Shown here: one piece after another, positions 28,110 to 38,080 of the stretch
Position numbering within the stretch: position 1 is the stretch's first letter
How the letters are laid out: the number at the start of each line of letters is the position of its first letter
Sequence record: NC_007023.1
Strand: one strand, 5' to 3'
DNA from: Escherichia phage RB43
Length of the DNA: 64,000 nucleotides
Program-made: the position numbers and the translations under genes
Notes under the pieces: generated by a model
Database searches by the model: none
Told to the model about the DNA's origin: nothing
The model's input: only the letters and a program-made list of their open reading frames with translations

Positions 28110-28432
28110 TTACTTTTGATTCTGCTGCATTCTTCCTCACACTCTTTTTCCGCAAGGATTTTGCGAACAACAGTATTTCTGATTTTCCAGAGATAATCAA
28201 TCATCTGCATATCTTCGGGAGTGTGATAACCTTTCATATCACATTCAAATACGATAGCATCGCGTTCTGACATTGCCATTATCGCGGTAGCAGAACAAAT
28301 GGTCATCCCACTATATTTTTCAATCAACGATTCCAGTGTACGCTTTTCTGCCGGAAGGTCAATAGTTATCGGAACAGGACGGATTCTTGTAGTTGAATCG
28401 TCAAAGGATTGATAAATCATATCATCCACCAT
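28094..28432 (-). CDS. hypothetical protein (112 aa)
   Basis: ORF. Confidence 0.45.
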   Translation of the reverse strand: MVDDMIYQSFDDSTTRIRPVPITIDLPAEKRTLESLIEKYSGMTICSATAIMAMSERDAIVFECDMKGYHTPEDMQMIDYLWKIRNTVVRKILAEKECEEECSRIKSKWGVL

Positions 28433-28715
28433 ATTTGAGAGTATTCATATAACCGATGATGTATTCAACAACAGCATCGCGTTCTTCTTCACATTCATAT
28501 CCACCCCACGTTACCGACTGATTATGTGCTAAATGAAACGTAATCGCAGGTTTCCATGTTTTGTTAATACAAGGAATTTTAGCGTCGGTCTGAATCCATA
28601 AAACGTGCTCTACGTTAACAGGATAGTTAACACATTCCACCTCTGCGTTACTATTGTATACAAAATGGTCTGCGTATAAACGTTTATACGATTTAATTTC
28701 TGACACAATAATCAT
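28422..28715 (-). CDS. hypothetical protein (97 aa)
   Basis: ORF; ATGA overlap with upstream gene's reconstructed stop. Confidence 0.45.
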   Translation of the reverse strand: MIIVSEIKSYKRLYADHFVYNSNAEVECVNYPVNVEHVLWIQTDAKIPCINKTWKPAITFHLAHNQSVTWGGYECEEERDAVVEYIIGYMNTLKYGG

Positions 28716-29870
28716 TTTAACTCCACTGCATAAACATCGGTTTCAGGGGCTTTGTGTACGCGCATATCTTTACCACATACCGCATAAGCCGGACAGTTGC
28801 GACAACCGTTATGATCCGTGTTGCCTGTCAGTTCTTTACGGAACTGTTTTGTTCGCGGGTGTTCCCAGATATCTTTGATAAAAATCATCTGCTTCCAGAA
28901 CGTTCAAACCTTCGCCCCAGCCACCTTCAACCCAACGTTCGGTAAACGAGCAAGGGAAGAATTCGCCTTTTTCGTTGATGTAAGAGCTAAACATCGTCGC
29001 TTCGCAATCTTCCGCATACTGCTTGTATTGTTCGAAGTTCGGGTGTCCCTCCATCGCTTCAACGAAAGCGGGTGCTGAACAACTATCGAATCCAAATCCT
29101 ACACCAGAATCGAGGCAATATTCAACAAGTTTTTTGTATTGTTCGCGGGTGACGGTATCCCAGTTCTTACCGCGTCCCTTTTGTTTCAGACCCAGGAACA
29201 CGATCGCATTGACTTGTTTCAGGCGTGGATCGTTACGCACGGCATCAACAACGGTAAACGCATCATCATAGGTCTTTGAGCTAACCATGAAATGTAGGTT
29301 GATTTGCTGTTGTCCTGCTTCTGCCAGGTTCGCTACGGAATCGAAAGCAACATCGAAGCCAGCATGTTTATACACCGATACCGCAACAGCCCCAGCAACC
29401 GCCGCTAAACGCGCTGCAACGTCTTTTGATACATCAGCAATGGTAAGGTTCGGCACAATGCCTTTAGAACGCGCATAGGCCATCATATCAAACATATCAG
29501 GGTTTGTTTGTCCCTGTGCATCAGCACCGAGTGCGCATTGGGTTAACCAGGGCATTTTATCAATGATGGATTTGAAAGAAGCGAGATCCATATTGTAGCC
29601 GTTCGGGTTATTGGACTTGTAACAGAACCCACACAGCTTACCAGCAGGACCGTTGCATTTGGTAGTGACCTCAATATCGAGAATCTCAGGGAATGGGGCA
29701 TAAGTCGGATCGTTGTCAAAGGTTGTACCCCAACGAGCAAACTGACCAGTTTTAACGTTGAAATCGTAATTGTACCATTTGGATCTAGCGTGGCGCATAT
29801 CTCCAGCCTGGTAGATAAACAACGTAGGCGCTTTCATAACAGTATGTGCATTATTCATAATATTTCTCAA
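28712..29870 (-). CDS. putative Fe-S / radical-SAM-like enzyme (non-canonical CX7CX2C), apparent frameshift at A5 run ~28885-28895
   Basis: TTKCNGPAGKLCGFCY cluster; C-terminal continuation in another frame adds CRNCPAYAVCGKD Cys motif. Confidence 0.35.
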
Positions 29871-30055
29871 AATTGAATGTGTGAACGGAATACAGCACGA
29901 GCGGTTACTTCATTATCAAACGGCATTGAAGTACCGGATTTTTCGTTTTCCACGTTAACGCGCCAGAAAGAAGAAATGTCGTTACCTTCAACATACTGAA
30001 ACAGCGTTACAGTTTTGTTTGGTAATTCGCGTTTGTCGATTTCATACTTTTTCAT
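29867..30055 (-). CDS. hypothetical protein (~62 aa)
   Basis: Start moved to internal Met to avoid overlap with upstream gene. Confidence 0.4.
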   Translation of the reverse strand: MKKYEIDKRELPNKTVTLFQYVEGNDISSFWRVNVENEKSGTSMPFDNEVTARAVFRSHIQF

Positions 30056-30314
30056 TTTTGCCACCAAAGCGGGATTGACGTTCTGCCATGAGTTCACGGC
30101 GATAATGTTTAACGTAAACCCCGTTGAGTTTACGCAGTTGTCCGAATACTTTGTTAAACAGGGCTTTCTTCGCCTTGTATTCGTCGGTCATGCGGATAGA
30201 CTCGATGGTCATCCCCATTTCATTTTTCGGATATGCTCTAAGTTCACTTCCTATATCAGAGCACCAGGATTCAAGATAGTCACGCTGGGTTTTGTATTGT
30301 TCAAACGTTAACAT
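30042..30314 (-). CDS. hypothetical protein (90 aa)
   Basis: ORF. Confidence 0.45.
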   Translation of the reverse strand: MLTFEQYKTQRDYLESWCSDIGSELRAYPKNEMGMTIESIRMTDEYKAKKALFNKVFGQLRKLNGVYVKHYRRELMAERQSRFGGKNEKV

Positions 30315-30369
30315 AGTTCACCTCTCCGTTTCTGTATGGGTGTAAGATAACATCATCAAACACCCAGCG

Positions 30370-30549
30370 CAAGCATTATTTGTTGTATTCAAGGAAGAAT
30401 TTAATTGCTTCTTCCGGTGTCATATCATCGGAGAACAAACCAAAGAAAGTACGATGATGATCATTATAGGAAATGTTCAGAGGTTGCAATAAATCCCGAA
30501 CCTGTTCAGCCCATTGGCGATATTTTTTACTAAATGGTTGATTTCTCAT
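30370..30549 (-). CDS. hypothetical protein (59 aa)
   Basis: MRNQPFSKKYRQWAEQVRDLL...; ATGA overlap with upstream gene. Confidence 0.3.
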
Positions 30550-30746
30550 TCTTCCTCTCCTTCCTGTGCGAAGTATTCACACACCGCATCTTCGGGGGTA
30601 CAACCATCAGAGTAAAGGGCATACATGAAATCTTCATCATATGCAGAACTACCCAGCATGTTTTCAACAGAGCGTTTCCATTTGTTGTAATTCTTTTCGC
30701 CCTGGGTTACTTCGTTTTCTGCTTTACACATTTCATACATGTTCAT
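30546..30746 (-). CDS. hypothetical acidic protein (66 aa)
   Basis: ORF. Confidence 0.4.
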   Translation of the reverse strand: MNMYEMCKAENEVTQGEKNYNKWKRSVENMLGSSAYDEDFMYALYSDGCTPEDAVCEYFAQEGEEE

Positions 30747-30892
30747 AAAAATCTCCCAAAATCTTTTGCTACATCTTTCGGATCGGCTTCCAGTTCGTAC
30801 AGTTCACGGGCTAAGGAACTGGGTTTTATATCACGCCCTAAATGGGTGCTAACGTTACGTAACCACTGAATATAGGGATCGAACTTGCTCAT
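30743..30892 (-). CDS. possible 49-aa protein
   Basis: MSKFDPYIQWLRNVSTHLGRDIKPSS...; ATGA couplings. Confidence 0.25.
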   Translation of the reverse strand: MSKFDPYIQWLRNVSTHLGRDIKPSSLARELYELEADPKDVAKDFGRFL

Positions 30893-31050
30893 AACACCAC
30901 CGCATTACCAGACTTTATTGAACGCTCCAGGGATTCAGCAGTGACAGTAAATTCAGGGAACCACACACCGAGATTACTTGACCACCACCAGACATTACCA
31001 CCATCAGTTTTAAATTCAAGATTCAGGTAGTTACTGAAAATGCGTTTCAT
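30889..31050 (-). CDS. hypothetical Trp-rich small protein (~53 aa)
   Basis: Start at ATG 31048-31050 with RBS AAGGGG. Confidence 0.35.
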   Translation of the reverse strand: MKRIFSNYLNLEFKTDGGNVWWWSSNLGVWFPEFTVTAESLERSIKSGNAVVL

Positions 31051-31060
31051 ATTATTCCCC

Positions 31061-31339
31061 TTATGCCATTTTCTTAGCGAGTTTCCAGGCGGCTTTGAAC
31101 GCCGGAACATCGTCAATTTCAATCCAGAAACCAGAACCGAAACCATCATTGTAGCAAGGGCAACCGTCGCAGTAGTTTTCCCAGGTCATCACTTCGCCAC
31201 CAACAGAAGCACCAGTTTCCATCGCACGTAACGCATCTTCAACTTTTTCCAGTTTTTCCGCGTTGTCGTCATAAATGATGAAGTACCATTTGCCGTTGTA
31301 TTCGTTACCCAGTTTGATTGCTTCGCGAACAAGTTTCAT
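31061..31339 (-). CDS. hypothetical protein (~92 aa; CDGCPC motif)
   Basis: Start at MKLVREA just downstream of element C; ORF-track N-terminus is translation of the promoter element. Confidence 0.5.
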   Translation of the reverse strand: MKLVREAIKLGNEYNGKWYFIIYDDNAEKLEKVEDALRAMETGASVGGEVMTWENYCDGCPCYNDGFGSGFWIEIDDVPAFKAAWKLAKKMA

Positions 31340-31412
31340 GATGATTTCCTTTTGTCTGTTTCGTTTCGATGTGTGTAATATAACAAAACCCCTCACCATA
31401 GGCAAGGGGTTT
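31340..31412 (-). promoter_or_regulatory. PeSL-like element C (TTGCCT-17-TATATT with hairpin ACCCCT...AGGGGT)
   Basis: -35 at 31400-31405, -10 at 31377-31382 (minus strand). Confidence 0.55.
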
Positions 31413-31430
31413 CTTTAACAAAAAGTGCTA

Positions 31431-32033
31431 TTACCATCCGTTAGGGTTGCGGAAATGTGTCTGCCAGTAACGCAGTTGTTCGCGGCTCATTTGCTGGGTG
31501 TCAATTACCATGCTATGAATCATTTCTAACATAACACGGGTTTGTGCGACATCCTCCAGGCTCGCTATACGCTGTTTTAAGGCTTCGTTCTCTTTCTCCA
31601 ACTCAACCATACGGTCGTATGCTTTGATGCGCTCCAGTGGCATATCAGGGCGCTCTTTGAGGACACGGGCGCGGGACACTTCACATTCATGATTCGCTTT
31701 CCAGTGTTCAGCCTCTTTGACGGCTTTTTGTTCGTTATGACGTGACATAGAAAGGTCACTAACCAGATCCATAACAGTTTGCGGATCTACGGTTTCAAGG
31801 TAATTCCCCAGATCCGTTTCCCATCCTTTAACCTGTGTCGGACTATCACCATAAGGAACTACATACTGAAATACACGTTTATATTCTTTCCCACTGAATC
31901 CGTAATCTTGATTACCGCGAATAGAACCATTATCAGCAGCAGTCCATTTAGAACCCATCATGTAAGAGACTTTACGCGCCGCCTCAGCAATAGCGCCAAT
32001 TTTCGTATCTTCTAATTTCATTTCATATCCCAT
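31431..32033 (-). CDS. hypothetical protein (200 aa; C-terminal coiled coil)
   Basis: ORF. Confidence 0.5.
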   Translation of the reverse strand: MGYEMKLEDTKIGAIAEAARKVSYMMGSKWTAADNGSIRGNQDYGFSGKEYKRVFQYVVPYGDSPTQVKGWETDLGNYLETVDPQTVMDLVSDLSMSRHNEQKAVKEAEHWKANHECEVSRARVLKERPDMPLERIKAYDRMVELEKENEALKQRIASLEDVAQTRVMLEMIHSMVIDTQQMSREQLRYWQTHFRNPNGW

Positions 32034-32422
32034 AATTCATATTGTGCGCGAAGGATAGCGTACAGGCTACCTATGTGGATCGTGTCTACCGGACACTGGA
32101 ACATATCACTACGCATCATGTTAAACTCAATATCGTTCTGTTCAACGAAGTTGCCGATCATTGATGTCCAGCCCATCACCAGGTTATAGCCGTCCTCCGA
32201 TAACCCGTAAGCCAGCTTAACCATGATACAGCGTTTATCAGCCAGTTCTACGCGCATATGGGTACTGCTATGCGTGACCTTGCTGGGGAATCTGCGGAAC
32301 ATCTTGGTAAGGAGTTTAGCCGTTTCAATATTGAACGCCAGTTCTTGATCCTTACTAACCTGATTATCATGACGACGATCCAGGTATTTTTTCATCTTAG
32401 GGTTAGTGTTCACATGTTGCAT
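32018..32422 (-). CDS. hypothetical protein (134 aa)
   Basis: ORF. Confidence 0.45.
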   Translation of the reverse strand: MQHVNTNPKMKKYLDRRHDNQVSKDQELAFNIETAKLLTKMFRRFPSKVTHSSTHMRVELADKRCIMVKLAYGLSEDGYNLVMGWTSMIGNFVEQNDIEFNMMRSDMFQCPVDTIHIGSLYAILRAQYELWDMK

Positions 32423-32622
32423 AATGTATCCTTAAAACGTTCTTTTCCAGTGCCATTGCATGAACTGCATTTTGGCGATCCGTGGTTATCATACCGACCC
32501 GAACCGTTACATGCAAGACATTTCCGTAATTTCCAACCATACACGAACCGCATATAGTAATCGGTTCGTGCGGCTTTGCGTTCGTGGAAGTTCATACTTT
32601 GCTGTAAACCTGAACCAACCAC
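32410..32622 (-). CDS. small Cys-rich protein with two DnaJ-type CxxCxGxG zinc-finger repeats
   Basis: CLACNGSG ... CSSCNGTG. Confidence 0.45.
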   Translation of the reverse strand: MVGSGLQQSMNFHERKAARTDYYMRFVYGWKLRKCLACNGSGRYDNHGSPKCSSCNGTGKERFKDTLCNM

Positions 32623-32795
32623 ATTTCGATGTTCGGCGCGTAAGTAACGTTTACCATCGGCATAGTGCGGTATTTGTAAGCGGCTTTGTATGCTTCCAGT
32701 TCGGTCGCAACACAGAAAGAGAAACCGTTGTCATAACGTTCTGCGTTAGCAACTTCACAACCAACAACAGCAGCAATGTTTTTGTTCATGTTCAT
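32592..32795 (-). CDS. hypothetical protein (67 aa)
   Basis: Start at MNMNKN downstream of element D. Confidence 0.4.
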   Translation of the reverse strand: MNMNKNIAAVVGCEVANAERYDNGFSFCVATELEAYKAAYKYRTMPMVNVTYAPNIEMWLVQVYSKV

Positions 32796-32870
32796 GATGA
32801 TTTTCCTTTCTCTGTTTCGTTTCGATGTGTGTAATATAACAAAGACCCTGCACGGATGCAAGGGCTTTAA
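32796..32870 (-). promoter_or_regulatory. PeSL-like element D (TTGCAT-17-TATATT with hairpin)
   Basis: -35 at 32856-32861, -10 at 32833-32838 (minus strand). Confidence 0.55.
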
Positions 32871-32875
32871 TGAAA

Positions 32876-33172
32876 TTATTTCGATTCTTTTGGCAATTGT
32901 TCGATAATCGATTGAGTTTGTTTAAGTTCTTCACTCAAATTATTTCGATATGTAGCAAGTTCGCGGATTCTCGCGTTCGCATATGTGATGACCCTTTCCT
33001 CAGTCACCGCATAATGATAACCACCATTAGAAGTAAGTTCCAAACGGTAATTATCCCCCGTTAGGTACTTTGATATGCTGGTACTGTAAAAATACCTTTA
33101 CTGCTTCCAGAAGATTATAGTCTTCTTTACCGATAATAAACTGGTTCGGTTCCATTTCTTCAATATCAGGAT
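32876..33172 (-). CDS. hypothetical protein, apparent frameshift at C5/G5 run (~33051-33055)
   Basis: 41-aa ORF MNPDIEEM...VPNGG continues in another frame as DNYRLELTSNGGYHYAVTEERVITYANARIRELATYRNNLSEELKQTQSIIEQLPKESK. Confidence 0.3.
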
Positions 33173-33709
33173 TCATTTTGTAGCCTTATACATTTCAATT
33201 ACGCGTTTCATGTGCTCTTGTGATTGAGGCACACCAGCGAAGTTCAGTTTAATAAAGAATTCAAGACGATCTTTTTTATTGCATTCATCCAGCCCCAGGG
33301 CAGGTAATGACAGGTTTTCAAAGGCGCGTTGTTCGTGTCGCTGCATATCGTCCCAGAACAGACGGGAACCATCCGGCATAGGAATCCCTATCTCACCTTC
33401 ATAAACCTTGATGATCGTCGTCAATCGTTGTTTGCCGTCGATTACTTCGACCCAGTGAGATTCGTTAAACTCGCTATCAACAGCGATCGCGATAATACCG
33501 CAAGGGAACCCAGTGATCAAAGTTGTCAAGAATTCATCTTGTTCTTTCTGCGTCCACACATAAGGGCGCTGATAGGATGGATTCAGATCCAGATCCTTAT
33601 TTTTCCACCAGTGAATATAACTTCCAACAATGATCGCATGTTCACGGCTTCTGAAAGTTATCTGTTCGCGAATCCGGTTTCTTGCCGGAATATCATCTTT
33701 ATTAGACAT
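33173..33709 (-). CDS. DUF262 / ParB-like nuclease-fold domain protein
   Basis: 178 aa; YQRPYVW and IDGKQRLTT motifs typical of DUF262 (GmrSD N-terminal domain family). Confidence 0.6.
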   Translation of the reverse strand: MSNKDDIPARNRIREQITFRSREHAIIVGSYIHWWKNKDLDLNPSYQRPYVWTQKEQDEFLTTLITGFPCGIIAIAVDSEFNESHWVEVIDGKQRLTTIIKVYEGEIGIPMPDGSRLFWDDMQRHEQRAFENLSLPALGLDECNKKDRLEFFIKLNFAGVPQSQEHMKRVIEMYKATK

Positions 33710-34040
33710 GTTTGACTACCCACATCAATAAACCAGCATTGATAATAGCAAAAGTAGTACAAATCGCAGCATAAACACGCGCATTATGAACGTAGGTTTT
33801 CAGTTCTGCGATCTCTTGATCCTTTTCACTTTCGAACTCTTCACGGGTTCCGTAGTAACCAGGATCAGCAGGAGTAGCAACGCGCACAGCATCTTTTTCG
33901 AATAATGTCGATTTACCATGATCAGGCCCAACAACACCCAAAATGTCACCACGGTCGGTGTTAACGATTCCGTGTGTTCCGGCTTTGGCAAATTTACAAT
34001 CTTTGATTGTGACTACACGATCGCCAGCTTTGTAATTCAT
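33702..34040 (-). CDS. hypothetical protein with C-terminal TM anchor (112 aa)
   Basis: ORF; terminator hairpin 34047-34068 upstream. Confidence 0.5.
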   Translation of the reverse strand: MNYKAGDRVVTIKDCKFAKAGTHGIVNTDRGDILGVVGPDHGKSTLFEKDAVRVATPADPGYYGTREEFESEKDQEIAELKTYVHNARVYAAICTTFAIINAGLLMWVVKHV

Positions 34041-34067
34041 AATATATCCTCAAAGGGGCCGAAGCCC

Positions 34068-34325
34068 CTATTTCGCTTTCTGTTGGAGGTACTCTAACAG
34101 TTTACCTTCTTCCTGCAAAGCAGAAACTTTATTCAGCTTTGCAATGTTCTGGAAATCAGATTGATCGGAATACTCCCAAACACCATCATCAGCAATAATT
34201 GCACCTGCTGATTCTCCGGTATGTGGATTGCGAGTCAATGCCAGCCCCAGGGGATGCAGGATCTCTTTATTGATTTTCCAGAGCAACCCCATTTCAGACA
34301 GAGTATTGAAATCGACGGTTTTCAT
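34068..34325 (-). CDS. hypothetical protein (85 aa)
   Basis: ORF. Confidence 0.45.
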   Translation of the reverse strand: MKTVDFNTLSEMGLLWKINKEILHPLGLALTRNPHTGESAGAIIADDGVWEYSDQSDFQNIAKLNKVSALQEEGKLLEYLQQKAK

Positions 34326-34708
34326 TTTGCAATAATGCCGAAAGCAAGCAAACCACCGCGATGATCGTTATCCGCACTCTCCTGGAAGAAAAAGTATTCA
34401 TCACCGGAAATACTGGTAACACGAACACCTTCTTTCAGATACGGTAACAGATACAGAGGGATCAGCATGATTTCTAAATCATCGCTCCATTTACGGAACC
34501 CCAGATTTTTCATTTCTTCCATCGTCAGGTCATTAGGATCGACGGGTTCAAAATCAGGTGATGCCTGGAGTCGTCCAGGAAGTGAACGTATATGGTTGAG
34601 AGCAAATTCTTCTCCCCATGACTGATACGCGATAGGTTCAGCGGCACGGGTTGCAGTAGCCAACAGAATCATTTGGCAGATTTGGAAAGTCGTTGCTTTT
34701 GTTTTCAT
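34322..34708 (-). CDS. hypothetical protein (128 aa; possible signal peptide)
   Basis: ORF. Confidence 0.45.
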   Translation of the reverse strand: MKTKATTFQICQMILLATATRAAEPIAYQSWGEEFALNHIRSLPGRLQASPDFEPVDPNDLTMEEMKNLGFRKWSDDLEIMLIPLYLLPYLKEGVRVTSISGDEYFFFQESADNDHRGGLLAFGIIAK

Positions 34709-35118
34709 GATGTATATCCCACAAGTTTAGTAAGGAGGTGTCCCATAGTCTTACGCGCATGATCGCGGATTTCGCTATAAGGAACATATTTGAAACCGTC
34801 CATTTCTGTAATGGTTCGACCGTTCTTCACGAACGTTGACGCACAGAAACATTTATCGGCTTCGGGGTAATTATCGCCTTTGTAGATGAACAATGCAAGT
34901 TTTTTCTTACTTGTATAATCCAAAACACCCAGGCTGATCAGTTGGTCAGGACGCACTTCGAAACCAGTTTCTTCGAAGCATTCGCGAATAGCAGCATCAT
35001 ATGGGCTTTCACCCTTTTCTACATGCCCCTTTGGAATATCCCAGTGGGGCGTTTCGGTAGCGTGACCCATTAGAATACTGCCGTTATTCAGAAAGAGAAT
35101 ACCAGCAGATAATTCCAT
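34705..35118 (-). CDS. Nudix hydrolase (MutT/NudE-like)
   Basis: Nudix box GHVEKGESPYDAAIRECFEETGFEV; position comparable to T4 nudE region as I recall it. Confidence 0.85.
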   Translation of the reverse strand: MELSAGILFLNNGSILMGHATETPHWDIPKGHVEKGESPYDAAIRECFEETGFEVRPDQLISLGVLDYTSKKKLALFIYKGDNYPEADKCFCASTFVKNGRTITEMDGFKYVPYSEIRDHARKTMGHLLTKLVGYTS

Positions 35119-35354
35119 TATGCGTTTCCTGAACTAAATTTCTCGTCGTATGCGGAAAGCGCATTATCTGCACGTTTTTTCGCTTCTGTATGTCCACGGC
35201 TATCATTGATACCGCGACGATACATTTCGATCCAGAAAGAACGTCGAGTATCTTCGTTCATTTCGGTCAGTTTAATATCGCGAAATACGTTTTGTTCTTT
35301 GATCAGTCGTGCCAGTTCAGCATCTTGTTCAGTTCTTGATAGTACAGTGTTCAT
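35118..35354 (-). CDS. hypothetical protein (78 aa)
   Basis: ORF. Confidence 0.45.
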   Translation of the reverse strand: MNTVLSRTEQDAELARLIKEQNVFRDIKLTEMNEDTRRSFWIEMYRRGINDSRGHTEAKKRADNALSAYDEKFSSGNA

Positions 35355-35375
35355 AGTTCACCTATTTCTTTCAGT

Positions 35376-35603
35376 TCAGTTTTCAGTTTTTCGAGGAGTG
35401 GATTGGTATTGGATTTGTGAATCACTCAACCGCGCATAGAACAGAGTACGGGTTTCGTTGATTTCAGACAATACCTCTTGATCGAGTTTTTCGATACCCG
35501 CACCGAATGCCATTTGAAACAGAGTTTCAGCAGTTTGCGCGAATCCGTGTTGAAACATTCGATCGAATTTTGGTTCGTATTGTATTAAACGGACACTAGC
35601 CAT
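35376..35603 (-). CDS. hypothetical protein (~75 aa)
   Basis: Start moved to internal Met (MASVRL) to limit overlap. Confidence 0.35.
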   Translation of the reverse strand: MASVRLIQYEPKFDRMFQHGFAQTAETLFQMAFGAGIEKLDQEVLSEINETRTLFYARLSDSQIQYQSTPRKTEN

Positions 35604-35889
35604 AATATTCTTCGTAATCCTCACAATCTGGGAGGTATGTTTCGCAGAACATACAGAGTGTGAAAAATGCGGTTTGGCGAATGCCTGGGTTATCCGGTAG
35701 ATACATCCAGAATGTGTTTGCAAACACAATGAACGTTTTCAGATTTTCAACGGTTACTTCGCTGATACCATCATAACCAGATTGCGCGATCGCTCGCTCC
35801 AGAGGAACAGGATATTGCTGGCAGTAGTCAGCGTAATGTTCACTCGTTACAAGGTCATTAGCGACCTTCACTAAATTGGTGATTTTCAT
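35596..35889 (-). CDS. hypothetical protein (97 aa)
   Basis: ORF. Confidence 0.45.
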   Translation of the reverse strand: MKITNLVKVANDLVTSEHYADYCQQYPVPLERAIAQSGYDGISEVTVENLKTFIVFANTFWMYLPDNPGIRQTAFFTLCMFCETYLPDCEDYEEYYG

Positions 35890-36152
35890 TCAATATACCC
35901 CCAGCGAATCATAATATTATTGTCATCGGCAGGACCGTATACCGAAGGGTACGGATAAACTTCTGCTTTATAAAGATACACGATAGAATGCTTACGCATT
36001 TCATTGATAATATCGCTAAACGTACCTACTGATGTTTTTAGAGGCAGTGCCATTGGATTATCGCTGGTTTCTACTGTTGCTATCGGTCCATCAACCAGGA
36101 TAACACGAACTATCGTATGTTCGGTCAAATAAGCATATATTTTGTTTTTCAT
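35886..36152 (-). CDS. hypothetical protein (88 aa)
   Basis: ORF. Confidence 0.45.
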   Translation of the reverse strand: MKNKIYAYLTEHTIVRVILVDGPIATVETSDNPMALPLKTSVGTFSDIINEMRKHSIVYLYKAEVYPYPSVYGPADDNNIMIRWGYIE

Positions 36153-36469
36153 GCTTTTACGTATTCCACTTTAACAGGTTTTGCGACAAGGCGGTCTTTG
36201 GTGTAACCTTGCCCGTTACAGATATCACACACGTACTTGATATCTTCCATTTGGTCAACCCATCCAGAATCAGGCAAGCCAGAAGGATATGTGTTAACAC
36301 GGCGCACAACATATCCCTTACTTTCGCATTTCGGGCATTTGTGGGGATATTTTGATTTCAGTTCATTGGAGATCTGACGCAGCGTTTTCTCACCGCCGAG
36401 AACGGCGCACATGTGTTCGAGATCTGGAATTCTTAAATCAGCAGCCGTAACCAGGTTGAACTTTGACAT
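36149..36469 (-). CDS. zinc-ribbon protein (~106 aa; CPKCES...CDICNGQG)
   Basis: Start at MSKFN (ATG 36467-36469); ORF-track N-terminus is out-of-frame read of upstream small gene. Confidence 0.45.
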   Translation of the reverse strand: MSKFNLVTAADLRIPDLEHMCAVLGGEKTLRQISNELKSKYPHKCPKCESKGYVVRRVNTYPSGLPDSGWVDQMEDIKYVCDICNGQGYTKDRLVAKPVKVEYVKA

Positions 36470-36479
36470 AATATATTTC

Positions 36480-36620
36480 TCACTTAAAGAATTTTTTGAT
36501 GAAAGATAGGAACAAGCCACCACCGAACATGATCCAGTAACCAGCACCATCGCCATGAAACAAGACATAGACGGCAACACCGTAACAAAATAGTTCTGCA
36601 ATGTTCAGTAAGTTTCTCAT
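36480..36620 (-). CDS. small membrane peptide (46 aa)
   Basis: MRNLLNIAELFCYGVAVYVLFHGDGAGYWIMFGGGLFLSFIKKFFK preceded by strong RBS AGGAGG. Confidence 0.4.
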   Translation of the reverse strand: MRNLLNIAELFCYGVAVYVLFHGDGAGYWIMFGGGLFLSFIKKFFK

Positions 36621-36709
36621 ACCTTCCTCCTTTGTCTACACCAGGTATTTTACCAGAATATAGACCATAGTCAACAACAAAGTTTTATCAACAATACGAT
36701 CGCCTGTCA

Positions 36710-36850
36710 TTAGTAGTCTCCCATAGGTTGAGAAGATGCGACACTCAGAACTTTGAAAGTGCATTTGTTCCACTCACAATAAGTTTTTGCACAGTGAACG
36801 CTACCTTTCATAACAAACCCATTTGAGAAAATAAGCCAGTACAGTTTCAT
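36710..36850 (-). CDS. small Cys-rich protein (~46 aa)
   Basis: Start at MKLYWLIF downstream of element E. Confidence 0.35.
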   Translation of the reverse strand: MKLYWLIFSNGFVMKGSVHCAKTYCEWNKCTFKVLSVASSQPMGDY

Positions 36851-36915
36851 GATTGTCTCCTTTGTTTCAACACCCCCAATATAGCAAAAGCCCCTGCACG
36901 AATGCAAGGGCTTTT
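36851..36915 (-). promoter_or_regulatory. PeSL-like element E (TTGCAT-18-TATATT with hairpin GCCCCTGCA...TGCAAGGGC)
   Basis: -35 at 36902-36907, -10 at 36878-36883 (minus strand). Confidence 0.55.
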
Positions 36916-36916
36916 T

Positions 36917-37453
36917 TCAAATACTTTTCAACATGCGTAGTTGAGGTGGACAATCTGGGGAAGCAATCAGGCGATCCAAGCGCGACATAACGCGACGGTA
37001 GCCGTCATACTCGAACTTGATTTTAGGCGGTACATAGTTAACGTTGATTGCGTTTCTCGCGTTAATGTTCGCCTCATACTCAGGGATCACGGTGCGCAAG
37101 CGTAACGCAATCACTGGCTTTTCTTCTTCGAACAATTGGACAGTACAAACACAGGCAAACACTTTACCGTTAACGCGACGGTATGCGATAAGCTCCCGTG
37201 CTCCACCACCTTTAGTTTGTACTGCGTGATACAGAACGTTACACGAATAATGTTTTGCAAGGCTATGCAAAATGTCACGGTACAACTCAAAATCTTTTTT
37301 GATTGATGCAGAGCGATCGATAAAACGGTCTGCAATATGATCTCGCGTTGCCGATACCTTGACGGTATAGAAATCGCCCAACACCATATTAAACAAGTCG
37401 TTTACTTCTTTGCGTACATCGTTGATACGTGACATTAATCGTGTTCTGTTCAT
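36917..37453 (-). CDS. hypothetical protein (178 aa)
   Basis: ORF. Confidence 0.5.
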   Translation of the reverse strand: MNRTRLMSRINDVRKEVNDLFNMVLGDFYTVKVSATRDHIADRFIDRSASIKKDFELYRDILHSLAKHYSCNVLYHAVQTKGGGARELIAYRRVNGKVFACVCTVQLFEEEKPVIALRLRTVIPEYEANINARNAINVNYVPPKIKFEYDGYRRVMSRLDRLIASPDCPPQLRMLKSI

Positions 37454-37456
37454 AAA

Positions 37457-38080
37457 TCACCCATTATGTTTAAAGTATTCGATCTGACGCAGACGTTTTT
37501 CTGCTGCATCTTTCGAATCATATTCACCAAGTTCTTTCGTGCGGTCCTGATTGAGTATAACCCATTTATCGCCGCGCTGTTCGATGTGCTCCGTGATATC
37601 TTCAACAGTCTTATCGAGATCCAACGATTCAGCATCTTCCTCGATAATAGTCAAATCAACAGGCAGTGTCAACAGCCTTTTCACTCCGCTGATATCTTCT
37701 ATGCGGGAATCATACGCAAGCGTAACATGCGGTTTGTAATCGTCGAAATCATACGTTGCTCCGGCATCCATCGCATCTTTGAAACGGCTATGCAGATAAT
37801 CAGACTCCAGAACACCAACGATTGTATTACCATATTTCGTGTCCCACTTTTCGACATCAACCAAACGGGCAGGTTCAGAGATACCGGACGCAGGGAACAA
37901 ATCAACCGTTTTGCGGCTATACACAATCGTTGTATGCAGTTTTGCAGCAGAAACAGGATTCTCTACACCCAGAAGTTTTTGCACCTGTGCAAGCGCTTCA
38001 CAGGAAGCCTGATCGAACTTCGCACACATATACACACCTGGATCTTTCACAGGTTTTGCAACTTCAAGAAAACTTTTCAT
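37457..38080 (-). CDS. 2H phosphoesterase-family protein; positional counterpart of T4 gene 57B (Acb1-like anti-CBASS phosphodiesterase candidate)
   Basis: Two H-x-T motifs (HTTIVYS, HVTLAY); lies directly downstream of gp57A-gp1-gp3 as 57B does in T4 (from memory). Confidence 0.55.
   Translation of the reverse strand: MKSFLEVAKPVKDPGVYMCAKFDQASCEALAQVQKLLGVENPVSAAKLHTTIVYSRKTVDLFPASGISEPARLVDVEKWDTKYGNTIVGVLESDYLHSRFKDAMDAGATYDFDDYKPHVTLAYDSRIEDISGVKRLLTLPVDLTIIEEDAESLDLDKTVEDITEHIEQRGDKWVILNQDRTKELGEYDSKDAAEKRLRQIEYFKHNG

What the first reader, a model, noticed from the sequence alone, without database searches (positions are those of the whole stretch)
33173..33709. Phage-encoded DUF262/ParB-like domain protein
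YQRPYVW and IDGKQRLTT are hallmark motifs of the DUF262 (ParB/sulfiredoxin-fold) domain, best known as the N-terminal module of GmrSD-type modification-dependent restriction enzymes. A stand-alone copy in a phage is unexpected: it could be a decoy or inhibitor of host systems, or a nucleotide-hydrolysing enzyme acting on DNA.
Basis: partly seen in the sequence, partly recalled or inferred. Interest (0 to 1): 0.5.

Follow-up and report, generated by a model that had tools for sequence, protein, structure and literature searches.

The report
Stand-alone minimal DUF262 NTPase-fold gene
Phage RB43 carries a small early gene that is only the nucleotide-binding half of a bacterial anti-phage restriction enzyme; the same nuclease-less gene also occurs in many other phages and conjugative plasmids, which makes it a testable candidate for a factor that helps mobile DNA establish itself, though its function is untested.

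Summary
Window 33173-33709 (minus strand) is a 178-aa ORF, 100% identical to a "protein of unknown function" of phage RB43. It matches Pfam GmrSD_N/DUF262 (E 3e-20), and the model has a ParB/Srx fold closest to BrxU and SspE.

It is not a broken GmrSD. No nuclease lies downstream or anywhere in the window. Relatives are nearly all 160-190 aa, and dN/dS is 0.08.

It belongs to a distinct minimal clade:
- Lys replaces Gln in motif II (DGKQR).
- His replaces an acidic residue ten positions after motif III.
- The spacer between motifs II and III is about 58 aa, versus about 139 in BrxU.
- The chain ends about 22 aa after motif III.

The clade occurs in cytosine-DNA T4-like phages, rV5-like phages, ST64B-like temperate phages and hundreds of large plasmids. 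T4 lacks it. The gene moves between these elements alone.

My best reading is a self-contained NTP-binding/hydrolysing enzyme or switch, made early, acting at the interface between mobile element and host, probably in counter-defence or establishment. The fold and intact pocket are well supported. The biological role is inferred. I found no characterisation in the literature.

The family is already annotated in databases, so this is a new variant of a known kind. Interest is moderate.

The parts
33173..33709 (-). 178-aa ORF (21 kDa, pI 6.0) consisting of a single minimal DUF262 / ParB-Srx-fold domain
33554..33574 (-). Motif I, Y46-Q47-R48-P-Y-V-W52 (QRxxxW)
   Evidence: Y46, Q47, R48 and W52 are invariant in alignment A2; motif defined in PMC12065111
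33425..33439 (-). Motif II, D91-G92-K93-Q94-R95 (DGxQR, predicted gamma-phosphate site). It has Lys where GmrSD, BrxU and SspE have Gln.
   Evidence: Invariant in A2 and A3; DGKQR in 163 of 181 relatives against DGQQR in 7; role of DGQQR described in PMC8565348; the codons read GAC GGC AAA CAA CGA
33212..33256 (-). Motif III plus the clade-specific tail, F152-I-K-L-N156-F-A-G159-V-P-Q162-S163-Q-E-H166
   Evidence: F152, N156, G159 and H166 are invariant. His at N+10 occurs in 133 of 148 DGKQR proteins, whereas the classical-architecture relatives P0120 and P0142 have Glu there
33702..34040 (-). Upstream 112-aa ORF whose stop overlaps the DUF262 start by 8 nt (translational coupling). It has a C-terminal hydrophobic helix and is conserved with the DUF262 gene only in closely related genera.
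   Evidence: phrog_7472; junction AAACATGTCTAA; Kyte-Doolittle 1.98; hhalign probability 6.5% against the N-extension of the long relatives. It has no homologue next to the DUF262 gene in JSE, ST64B, DP, the Erwinia phage or the plasmids
32876..33176 (-). Downstream 99-aa ORF (ATGA overlap with the DUF262 stop). In this window an extra base at 33055-33059 splits it into 41-aa and 55-aa ORFs. It is not a nuclease.
   Evidence: Alignment with RB43-GVA; Pfam gives only sub-threshold coiled-coil hits; phrog_15764, unknown function
34054..34069 (-). GC-rich hairpin (AGGGGCTTCGGCCCCT) immediately upstream of the ribosome-binding site of the 112-aa ORF. It marks the upstream edge of the three-gene block.
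32791..32868 (-). PeSL-like composite stem-loop/promoter cassette (TTGCAT-N17-TATATT, with the -35 inside the stem) at the downstream edge of the block. A second copy lies at 31335-31412.
   Evidence: Repeat family D1; 31-nt core exact twice with 0 expected by chance; PeSL concept from PMC4122927 and PMC2839356. The promoter reading is my inference from the sequence.

Best explanation
The gene encodes a self-sufficient, single-domain ParB/Srx-fold (DUF262) protein that binds a nucleoside triphosphate and probably hydrolyses it. It belongs to a distinct minimal clade carried by mobile genetic elements: virulent and temperate phages, conjugative plasmids and megaplasmids. The clade has lost, or never had, the helical DNA-binding middle domain and the nuclease found in GmrSD, BrxU and SspE. 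It also has two changed pocket residues (Gln to Lys in motif II; acidic to His ten residues after motif III).

In RB43 the gene is transcribed with the early, leftward block of small accessory genes downstream of nudE and is translationally coupled to its neighbours.

Proposed mechanism: shortly after the element's DNA enters a cell, the protein uses its NTP pocket as an enzyme or as an NTP-gated (dimerisation) switch, acting on a widely conserved target such as a nucleotide or a nucleic-acid-linked process, to favour establishment of the element. Counter-defence is the most likely role.

Shown computationally: domain, fold, intact and invariant pocket, purifying selection, absence of any effector or partner, mobility as a single gene, and distribution across mobile elements.

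Inferred: NTP binding and hydrolysis (by homology), early timing, and the counter-defence/establishment role.
For: Domain and fold.

Pocket motifs invariant down to 28% identity, with clade-specific K93 and H166.

Strong purifying selection: dN/dS 0.079 at dS 0.78. This is typical of an enzyme, not of a fast-evolving binder of immune proteins.

The short form is ancestral to the clade. The deep search found 244 representative clusters at E<=1e-10. The closest are 160-190 aa, and chains end about 22 aa after motif III.

No nuclease or other effector in cis, in neighbouring genes, or anywhere in the window.

No neighbour is conserved across lineages, and only this gene is shared between phage loci and plasmid arrays. 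The plasmid copy is 67% identical to ST64B Sb33 and 44% to RB43.

Distribution is specific to mobile elements: 299 phage records, 324 plasmid records of which 166 are conjugative, phage-like metagenomic contigs, and essentially none in 5,426 E. coli genomes when searched at DNA level with ST64B sb33, where the one hit was on a plasmid.

On plasmids it sits in a roughly 40-kb co-directional array of small genes that includes a DUF4942/YdiA methyltransferase. That family is listed as strongly enriched in plasmid leading regions.

Precedent: DUF262 domains of BrxU and SspE are NTPases whose DGQQR residues position the gamma-phosphate (PMC8565348, PMC10952713). Genuine single-domain ParB-fold proteins have been noted in phages (PMC12704722).
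Against: No biochemical or genetic data exist for any member; I found none in seven literature searches.

The Lys and His substitutions could mean the pocket binds without hydrolysing, or uses a different ligand.

The plasmid array is not shown to be the leading region. The gene is about 40 kb from the putative oriT/mobI, and the direction of transfer is unknown.

Early timing in RB43 rests on gene orientation and sigma-70-like or PeSL-like elements. The promoter scan of the region is not above chance (9 found against 10.1 expected).

A counter-defence role is a guilt-by-association inference. The same associations also fit inter-element competition.
Confidence: 0.45

Rival explanations
1. Dominant-negative decoy. 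The free DUF262 domain pairs with the DUF262 domain of a host defence nuclease (GmrSD/BrxU, SspE, Menshen NsnA or PD-T4-2) and blocks the dimer-monomer cycle needed for cleavage.
For: The protein is homologous to those sensor domains. The best PADLOC hits are NsnA (5e-16) and PD-T4-2_A (3e-12). BrxU needs cycles of NTP-driven dissociation and re-association, and its nucleotide site is occluded by the partner protomer (PMC8565348). The protein is small, slightly acidic and carried by mobile elements.
Against: RB43 and RB49 carry canonical cytosine and so are not substrates of classical GmrSD (PMC12115623, PMC8056088). T4, which is a GmrSD target, lacks the gene. Catalytic-pocket residues are invariant and dN/dS is 0.08, whereas a decoy is constrained mainly at its interface and usually evolves fast. 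The clade is deep and is not nested close to any host defence protein: the nearest classical-architecture relatives are about 37% identical over about 130 aa at E~1e-12. Host DUF262 domains are extremely divergent from each other, at about 13% identity. The phage domain lacks the roughly 80-aa insertion between motifs II and III present in BrxU.
Confidence: 0.15
2. Sensor half of a weapon carried by the element against competing elements. The DUF262 domain recognises modified DNA, for example from hmC phages, and activates an effector encoded elsewhere. This would be a split GmrS/GmrD-like or Menshen-like system.
For: In every characterised system DUF262 is the sensor or NTPase of a defence system. 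One Klebsiella phage annotation labels the orthologue 'DefenseFinder protein'. Among T4-like phages the gene was seen only in cytosine-DNA genera and is absent from T4. On Klebsiella plasmids it shares an array with a type IV CRISPR-like module. GmrS and GmrD were originally separate proteins.
Against: No nuclease, ABC ATPase or other effector lies next to the gene in RB43, JSE, ST64B, Klebsiella phage DP, the Erwinia phage, the metagenomic phage contigs or the plasmids. No DH[IV]xP signature occurs in any real ORF of the 64-kb window. The protein lacks the helical ParBDB DNA-binding domain that accompanies DUF262 in NsnA, GmrSD, SspE and DndB (PMC12065111). The gene transfers between elements on its own.
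Confidence: 0.15
3. Accessory NTPase for a DNA-modification enzyme. This would parallel the ParB-methyltransferase fusions of phages and the ParB-like ATPases DndB and DpdB, helping the element's methyltransferase mark incoming DNA.
For: ParB-fold/methyltransferase fusions are enriched in phages (PMC12704722). A gene annotated as DNA methyltransferase lies one to five genes upstream in JSE and in Klebsiella phage DP; its 68%-identical homologue in the Erwinia phage is annotated only as hypothetical. A DUF4942 methyltransferase lies about 5 kb upstream in the plasmid array. The DpdB precedent is from my own knowledge.
Against: The methyltransferases are of unrelated types: an FPPC motif in JSE and an NPPY motif in DP/Erwinia, with no BLAST similarity. 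Neither has a homologue in the RB43 window. They are never adjacent to or fused with this clade, and none of the 17 relatives scanned shows a methyltransferase domain. The gene moves alone.
Confidence: 0.1
4. Decaying remnant of a full-length GmrSD-type gene, with no function.
For: It contains only the N-terminal domain of the classical architecture, and there is a frameshift just downstream in this window.
Against: The frameshift lies in an unrelated ORF that is intact in RB43-GVA. Length is conserved at 160-190 aa in hundreds of elements. dN/dS is 0.08 and the motifs are invariant.
Confidence: 0.01

Closest known systems
DUF262 (GmrSD_N, PF03235) domain of GmrSD-family type IV restriction enzymes, e.g. 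BrxU (PDB 7p9k) and Eco94GmrSD
   Different: No DUF1524/HNH nuclease and no linker or middle domain. The spacer between motifs II and III is about 58 aa, versus about 139 in BrxU. Motif II is DGKQR, not DGQQR. His replaces an acidic residue at N+10. It is encoded by phages and plasmids, not by defence islands. The carrier phage has unmodified cytosine.
SspE and DndI (phosphorothioate-sensing DUF262-DUF1524 effectors; PDB 6jiv, 9jfl)
   Different: Those proteins are 560-820 aa with a nuclease or nickase domain and sense phosphorothioate DNA. None of that is present here.
Menshen NsnA and PD-T4-2 component A (nuclease-less DUF262 defence proteins)
   Same: Best PADLOC profile matches (5e-16 and 3e-12). 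Like the RB43 protein, they lack DUF1524.
   Different: NsnA carries a C-terminal ParBDB DNA-binding domain and works with the NsnB ABC ATPase and the NsnC effector. No such domain or partner genes are present here.
Single-domain ParB/Srx-fold proteins: sulfiredoxin, PadC, SerK/SbnI, and the plasmid fertility inhibitor Osa
Short single-domain ParB-CTPase-fold proteins of phages noted in the PF02195 survey (PMC12704722)
   Same: The same idea: a phage protein that consists almost entirely of the NTP-binding fold.
   Different: That survey searched PF02195 and TIGR00180, not PF03235, and does not mention DUF262. Those proteins are about 100 aa.

Membership tests
DUF262 / GmrSD_N domain family (PF03235; ParB/Srx clan) | Profile match above Pfam's gathering score | tested here: met
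   73.5 bits against a cut-off of 33.2, E 3.2e-20
DUF262 / GmrSD_N domain family (PF03235; ParB/Srx clan) | Motif I QRxxxW, motif II DGxQR, motif III FxxxN | tested here: met
   QRPYVW, DGKQR and FIKLN are present and invariant in the family alignment; motifs as defined in PMC12065111. Motif II carries Lys instead of the usual Gln.
DUF262 / GmrSD_N domain family (PF03235; ParB/Srx clan) | ParB/Srx fold | tested here: met
DUF262 / GmrSD_N domain family (PF03235; ParB/Srx clan) | NTP binding and hydrolysis | not testable with these tools
   Inferred only from conservation of the pocket residues
GmrSD-family type IV restriction enzyme (GmrSD, BrxU, SspE-like) | DUF1524 / His-Me finger nuclease domain, fused or encoded by an adjacent gmrD-like gene | tested here: not met
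   The protein ends 22 aa after motif III. Neighbours have no nuclease domain. No DH[IV]xP signature in any real ORF of the window.
GmrSD-family type IV restriction enzyme (GmrSD, BrxU, SspE-like) | Modification-dependent DNA cleavage | not testable with these tools
   Biochemical property
Menshen (NsnABC) | NsnA = DUF262 plus a C-terminal ParBDB domain, followed by the NsnB ABC ATPase and the NsnC effector | tested here: not met
   The PADLOC NsnA hit covers only profile positions 45-205 of 385. There is no C-terminal domain and no ATPase or effector neighbours.
PD-T4-2 | Two-gene system whose A component is about 360 aa | tested here: not met
   The match is limited to residues 35-103 against profile positions 47-112 of 363. 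No conserved partner gene.
Canonical ParB (CTP-dependent DNA clamp) | ParBc N-domain with the GERRxR box, an HTH DNA-binding domain and a C-terminal dimerisation domain; a parS/ParA partner | tested here: not met
   No PF02195, HTH or TIGR00180-type match. The protein is a single 178-aa domain.
Sulfiredoxin | Catalytic Cys in an FGGCHR-type motif | tested here: not met
Plasmid leading-region anti-defence genes | Location within the first genes to enter the recipient, next to oriT | tested here: inconclusive
   The plasmid homologue lies in a co-directional array of small genes that includes a DUF4942/YdiA methyltransferase (a leading-region-enriched family). However, it is about 40 kb from mobI/mobH, and the direction of transfer is unknown.

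The most novel reading that the evidence does not exclude
The minimal DGKQR/His clade is a new family of counter-defence enzymes shared by phages and conjugative plasmids. On this reading, a stripped-down version of the very NTPase module that bacterial type IV restriction and Menshen-type systems use as a sensor has been re-tooled (Gln to Lys, Asp/Glu to His). It would either destroy or sequester a nucleotide needed by host immunity, or poison DUF262-based nucleases, and so promote establishment of incoming DNA.
Probability: 0.2. Interest if true: 0.75.

Novelty: new variant of a known kind. Interest (0 to 1): 0.45.

Why it matters
DUF262 is known only as the sensor/NTPase half of bacterial defence systems (GmrSD/BrxU, SspE, Menshen, Dazbog, PD-T4-2). 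This work shows that a nuclease-less, single-domain variant with altered pocket residues is a widespread cargo gene under strong purifying selection. It is carried by virulent phages, temperate phages and clinically important conjugative plasmids, including IncFIB/IncHI1B Klebsiella plasmids that carry KPC and CTX-M genes.

If it proves to be a counter-defence or establishment factor, it would add an enzyme-type anti-defence mechanism shared by phages and resistance plasmids. It would also give the simplest available model for how the DUF262 pocket works without its partner domains.

If it proves to be a housekeeping nucleotide enzyme, it is still a clean, small, well-folded target for assigning a function to a large family of unknown function (phrog_1583).

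Tried and rejected
1. Lost or frameshifted nuclease downstream. Rejected: the frameshift at 33055-33059 is in an unrelated 99-aa ORF that is intact in RB43-GVA.

2. Split GmrS/GmrD arrangement. No DUF1524 or HNH signature in any real ORF of the window or in neighbours of six other lineages.

3. A conserved partner gene. None is shared across RB43, JSE, ST64B, Klebsiella phage DP, the Erwinia phage, the metagenomic contigs or the plasmids.

4. Linkage to a methyltransferase. It looked promising in JSE, DP and the Erwinia phage, but the enzymes are unrelated to each other and absent from the RB43 window.

5. The upstream ORF112 as a split-off version of the Tudor/SH3-like N-terminal extension found in the 240-355-aa relatives. 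Rejected: hmmsearch gave no hit and hhalign gave 6.5% probability. ORF112 instead has a C-terminal membrane-type helix.

7. A characterised viral structural relative. The BFVD search returned only uncharacterised DUF262/ParB proteins.

8. Literature. Seven searches and eleven papers yielded no study of a phage- or plasmid-borne short DUF262. The ParB-CTPase survey (PMC12704722) did not include PF03235.

9. Leading-region status of the plasmid copy. This could not be settled from annotation.

10. NCBIfam has no model for the family.

Full report
**1. What is there**

Window 33173..33709 is an ATG-to-stop ORF of 178 aa on the minus strand. The window is phage RB43, a T4-like Pseudotevenvirus. 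A 3-kb stretch is 99.8% identical to the two RB43-GVA records, and the protein is 100% identical to a CDS annotated there only as "protein of unknown function".

Pfam GmrSD_N (PF03235, formerly DUF262) matches at 73.5 bits, E 3.2e-20, against a gathering score of 33.2. NCBIfam has no model for the family. The best PHROG is phrog_1583, function unknown, E 9e-59. PADLOC gives partial matches to the DUF262 parts of Menshen NsnA (5e-16) and PD-T4-2_A (3e-12).

The three motifs that define DUF262 are QRxxxW, DGxQR and FxxxN (PMC12065111). Here they are QRPYVW, DGKQR and FIKLN.

**2. It is not a broken restriction enzyme**

The protein ends 22 residues after motif III. There is indeed a frameshift just downstream: an extra base in a C5 run at 33055-33059. 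It splits an unrelated 99-aa ORF that is intact in RB43-GVA and has no nuclease similarity.

None of ten neighbouring ORFs has a nuclease domain. The only recognisable neighbour is the nudE-type NUDIX hydrolase at 34705..35118. A scan of all 374 stop-to-stop segments of the window found no DUF1524 signature in a real ORF, and DGxQR occurs only in this ORF.

The closest homologues in a 5.8-billion-protein search are almost all 164-197 aa. Against the Klebsiella phage orthologue, dN/dS is 0.079 at an unsaturated dS of 0.78. In an alignment reaching 28% identity, the invariant residues are Y46, Q47, R48, W52, G71, D91-R95, F152, N156, G159 and H166. These are the pocket motifs plus a clade-specific tail. 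The short form is therefore the functional, selected state.

**3. A distinct minimal clade**

An exhaustive HMMER search of 1.84 billion representatives gave 3,219 hits at E<=1e-3 and 244 at E<=1e-10. I examined 181 proteins from the two searches, with these results:
- 81 are no longer than 200 aa.
- 93 are 240-355 aa with the DUF262 domain at the C-terminus, the reverse of GmrSD, behind an N-terminal extension. For 76 of these the extension is one family.
- The model of one such protein shows a helix plus a five-stranded small beta-barrel. It resembles Tudor, Agenet, PWWP, KOW and SH3 modules only generically.

Clade signatures:
- DGKQR occurs in 163 of 181 proteins, against DGQQR in 7.
- His lies ten residues after the motif III Asn in 133 of 148 proteins. 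The two classical-architecture relatives have Glu at that position.
- The spacing between motifs II and III has a median of 58 residues, versus about 139 in BrxU.
- Chains end about 22 residues after motif III.

Two coordinated changes in pocket residues suggest chemistry or ligand preference that differs from the GmrSD-type NTPase.

**4. Where the gene lives**

Among cultured phages, tblastn finds it in 299 records:
- Pseudotevenvirus (RB43, RB16, Lw1)
- The related Enterobacter, Cronobacter and Citrobacter phages
- The KP15/KP27/Miro group
- Krischvirus (RB49, JSE, phi1; about 38% identity)
- rV5-like Vequintavirinae (about 42-46%)
- ST64B-like temperate Salmonella phages (45%)
- More distant phages of Sphingomonas, Bacteroides, Moraxella and Vibrio

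RB43 and RB49 lack the hmC pathway and carry canonical cytosine (PMC12115623, PMC8056088). I fetched the whole T4 genome and found no homologue. The best family-HMM E-value over all six frames is 0.36, against 2e-84 for the control in the window.

The gene is also on 324 plasmid records, 166 of them conjugative:
- About 140 Klebsiella, Raoultella and Citrobacter IncFIB/IncHI1B MOBH plasmids encode a 173-aa protein. It is 44% identical to RB43 and 67% identical to ST64B Sb33, with every signature retained.
- Pseudomonas megaplasmids encode a 175-aa version.

In 5,426 complete E. coli genomes, a DNA-level search with the ST64B sb33 gene finds one copy, on a plasmid. Because that search was at DNA level, it would miss more divergent copies.

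**5. Context**

No neighbouring gene is conserved across lineages. When all ORFs of the plasmid loci are compared with the phage loci, only the DUF262 gene is shared. It therefore moves as a single-gene unit.

In RB43 it is the middle gene of a translationally coupled trio:
- ORF112, whose stop overlaps the DUF262 start by 8 nt
- the DUF262 gene
- ORF99, with an ATGA overlap

The trio is bounded upstream by a GC-rich hairpin (34054-34069). Downstream lies a repeated stem-loop/promoter cassette at 32791-32868, with a second copy at 31335-31412. Its 31-nt core is exact in both copies, with none expected by chance. The cassette fits the PeSL elements described for T4-like hyperplastic regions (PMC2839356, PMC4122927).

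The block lies in the long leftward, early-type gene run, just downstream of the nudE homologue. In T4, nudE is followed directly by e.

On the Citrobacter freundii IncFIB/IncHI1B plasmid pKPC2_CFR867 the gene sits in a roughly 40-kb co-directional array of small, mostly unannotated genes. The array contains a DUF4942/YdiA methyltransferase, umuDC, toxin-antitoxin and Hok genes, and a type IV CRISPR-like module. It abuts traD/mobH/mobI. DUF4942/YdiA clusters are listed among the families most enriched in plasmid leading regions (PMC11541004, supplement file 3). I could not establish that this array is the leading region.

**6. How it most likely works**

Shown by computation:
- a compact ParB/Srx-fold domain with an intact, invariant nucleotide pocket
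- strong purifying selection
- no effector or DNA-binding domain
- a mildly acidic protein (pI 6.0; family median 5.75)
- autonomous horizontal mobility
- near-exclusive carriage by mobile elements

Inferred by homology with BrxU and SspE, where the DGQQR residues position the gamma-phosphate and NTP binding drives a dimer-monomer switch (PMC8565348, PMC10952713): the protein binds an NTP and probably hydrolyses it.

Three observations point to an activity that does not depend on a lineage-specific partner. The gene works in very different hosts and elements, it keeps its pocket rather than a surface, and it travels alone. I therefore favour an enzyme or NTP-gated switch acting on a universal target soon after the element enters the cell, most probably to aid establishment or counter-defence (overall confidence 0.45). 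Taken separately, I would put NTP binding at about 0.75 and the biological role at about 0.3.

**7. Rivals**

- **Dominant-negative decoy of host DUF262 nucleases (0.15).** This is attractive mechanistically. It is weakened by several facts: the carrier phages have unmodified DNA, T4 lacks the gene, the catalytic residues are invariant, dN/dS is low, and the clade is deep and not close to any host protein.
- **Sensor half of a competition or defence system with an unlinked effector (0.15).** This fits the "DefenseFinder protein" label and the restriction of the gene to cytosine-DNA T4-likes. However, no effector is ever adjacent, and the ParBDB DNA-binding domain is missing.
- **Accessory to a DNA methyltransferase (0.1).** The nearby methyltransferases are unrelated to each other, never adjacent, and absent near the RB43 gene.
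- **Decaying remnant (0.01).** This is excluded by the conservation data.

**8. Comparison with what is known, and novelty**

By all testable criteria the protein is a member of the DUF262/GmrSD_N domain family. It is not a member of the GmrSD/BrxU/SspE enzyme family, because the nuclease criterion was tested and not met. It is not a member of Menshen or PD-T4-2, because partner genes and the C-terminal domain are absent. It is not a canonical ParB.

In databases it is annotated at most as "DUF262 domain-containing protein". I found no experimental or comparative study of this clade in seven literature searches. The recent survey of the ParB-CTPase fold (PMC12704722) noted short single-domain ParB-fold proteins in phages, but it used PF02195 and does not mention DUF262.

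I rate it a new variant of a known kind. It is a good, cheap experimental target of moderate interest (0.45), not a surprise in itself. The most novel reading still open is a counter-defence enzyme family shared by phages and resistance plasmids (probability about 0.2).

Noticed in passing
window 28334-38000, compared with L001 (RB43-GVA): The window differs from RB43-GVA at only nine positions, six of which are single-base indels (28334, 28880, 33055, 34998, 35007, 35395). The one at 28880 shortens a radical-SAM/SPASM ORF from 381 to 344 aa. The one at 33055 splits the 99-aa ORF. The pair at 34998 and 35007 compensate for each other inside the NUDIX gene. These look like differences between sequence records, not biology.
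   Followed up: partly
window 31335-31412 and 32791-32868 (minus strand); hairpin-only copy at 36887-36927: A repeated composite stem-loop/promoter cassette: CCCTTGCA-TCCG-TGCAGGG with TTGCAT as an embedded -35, a 17-nt spacer, then TATATT, followed by a ribosome-binding site and a small ORF. The 31-nt core is exact in two copies with none expected by chance. It matches the PeSL elements proposed to drive modular gene shuffling in T4-like phages.
   Followed up: partly
window about 28713-29870 (minus strand): A radical-SAM-like protein with a SPASM iron-sulfur domain (Pfam E 1.2e-5). It is annotated 'Fe-S oxidoreductase' in a related Klebsiella phage and lies about 3.5 kb downstream of the DUF262 gene. 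This is an unusual enzyme for a T4-like early region, and its substrate is unknown.
   Followed up: no
window 32410..32622 and 36149..36601 (minus strand): Two small ORFs with CxxCxGxG-type zinc-finger repeats give sub-threshold matches to the DnaJ central domain and to Anti-TRAP. RB43 is already known to encode a functional J-domain protein (PMC3486835), so further chaperone-related accessory genes may be present.
   Followed up: no
L003 1496-2167 (phage JSE); L005 809-1492 (Klebsiella phage DP); L006 899-1579 (Erwinia phage pEa_SNUABM_56): Genes of about 225 aa lying near the DUF262 gene are not recognised by Pfam at E<=0.01. The JSE and DP genes are annotated as DNA methyltransferases; the Erwinia gene is annotated as hypothetical. 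They fall into two unrelated types: an FPPC motif in JSE, and an NPPY motif in DP and the Erwinia phage (68% identical to each other).
   Followed up: partly
P0052 (357 aa): A relative that contains two tandem copies of the minimal DUF262 domain in one polypeptide. This is consistent with the idea that the domain functions as a dimer.
   Followed up: no
L013 4641-8821 (plasmid pKPC2_CFR867): A type IV CRISPR-like module (Cas6/Cse3, a DinG-type helicase, Csf2) lies in the same co-directional plasmid array as the DUF262 homologue, together with umuDC, RES-Xre and Hok/Gef genes.
   Followed up: no
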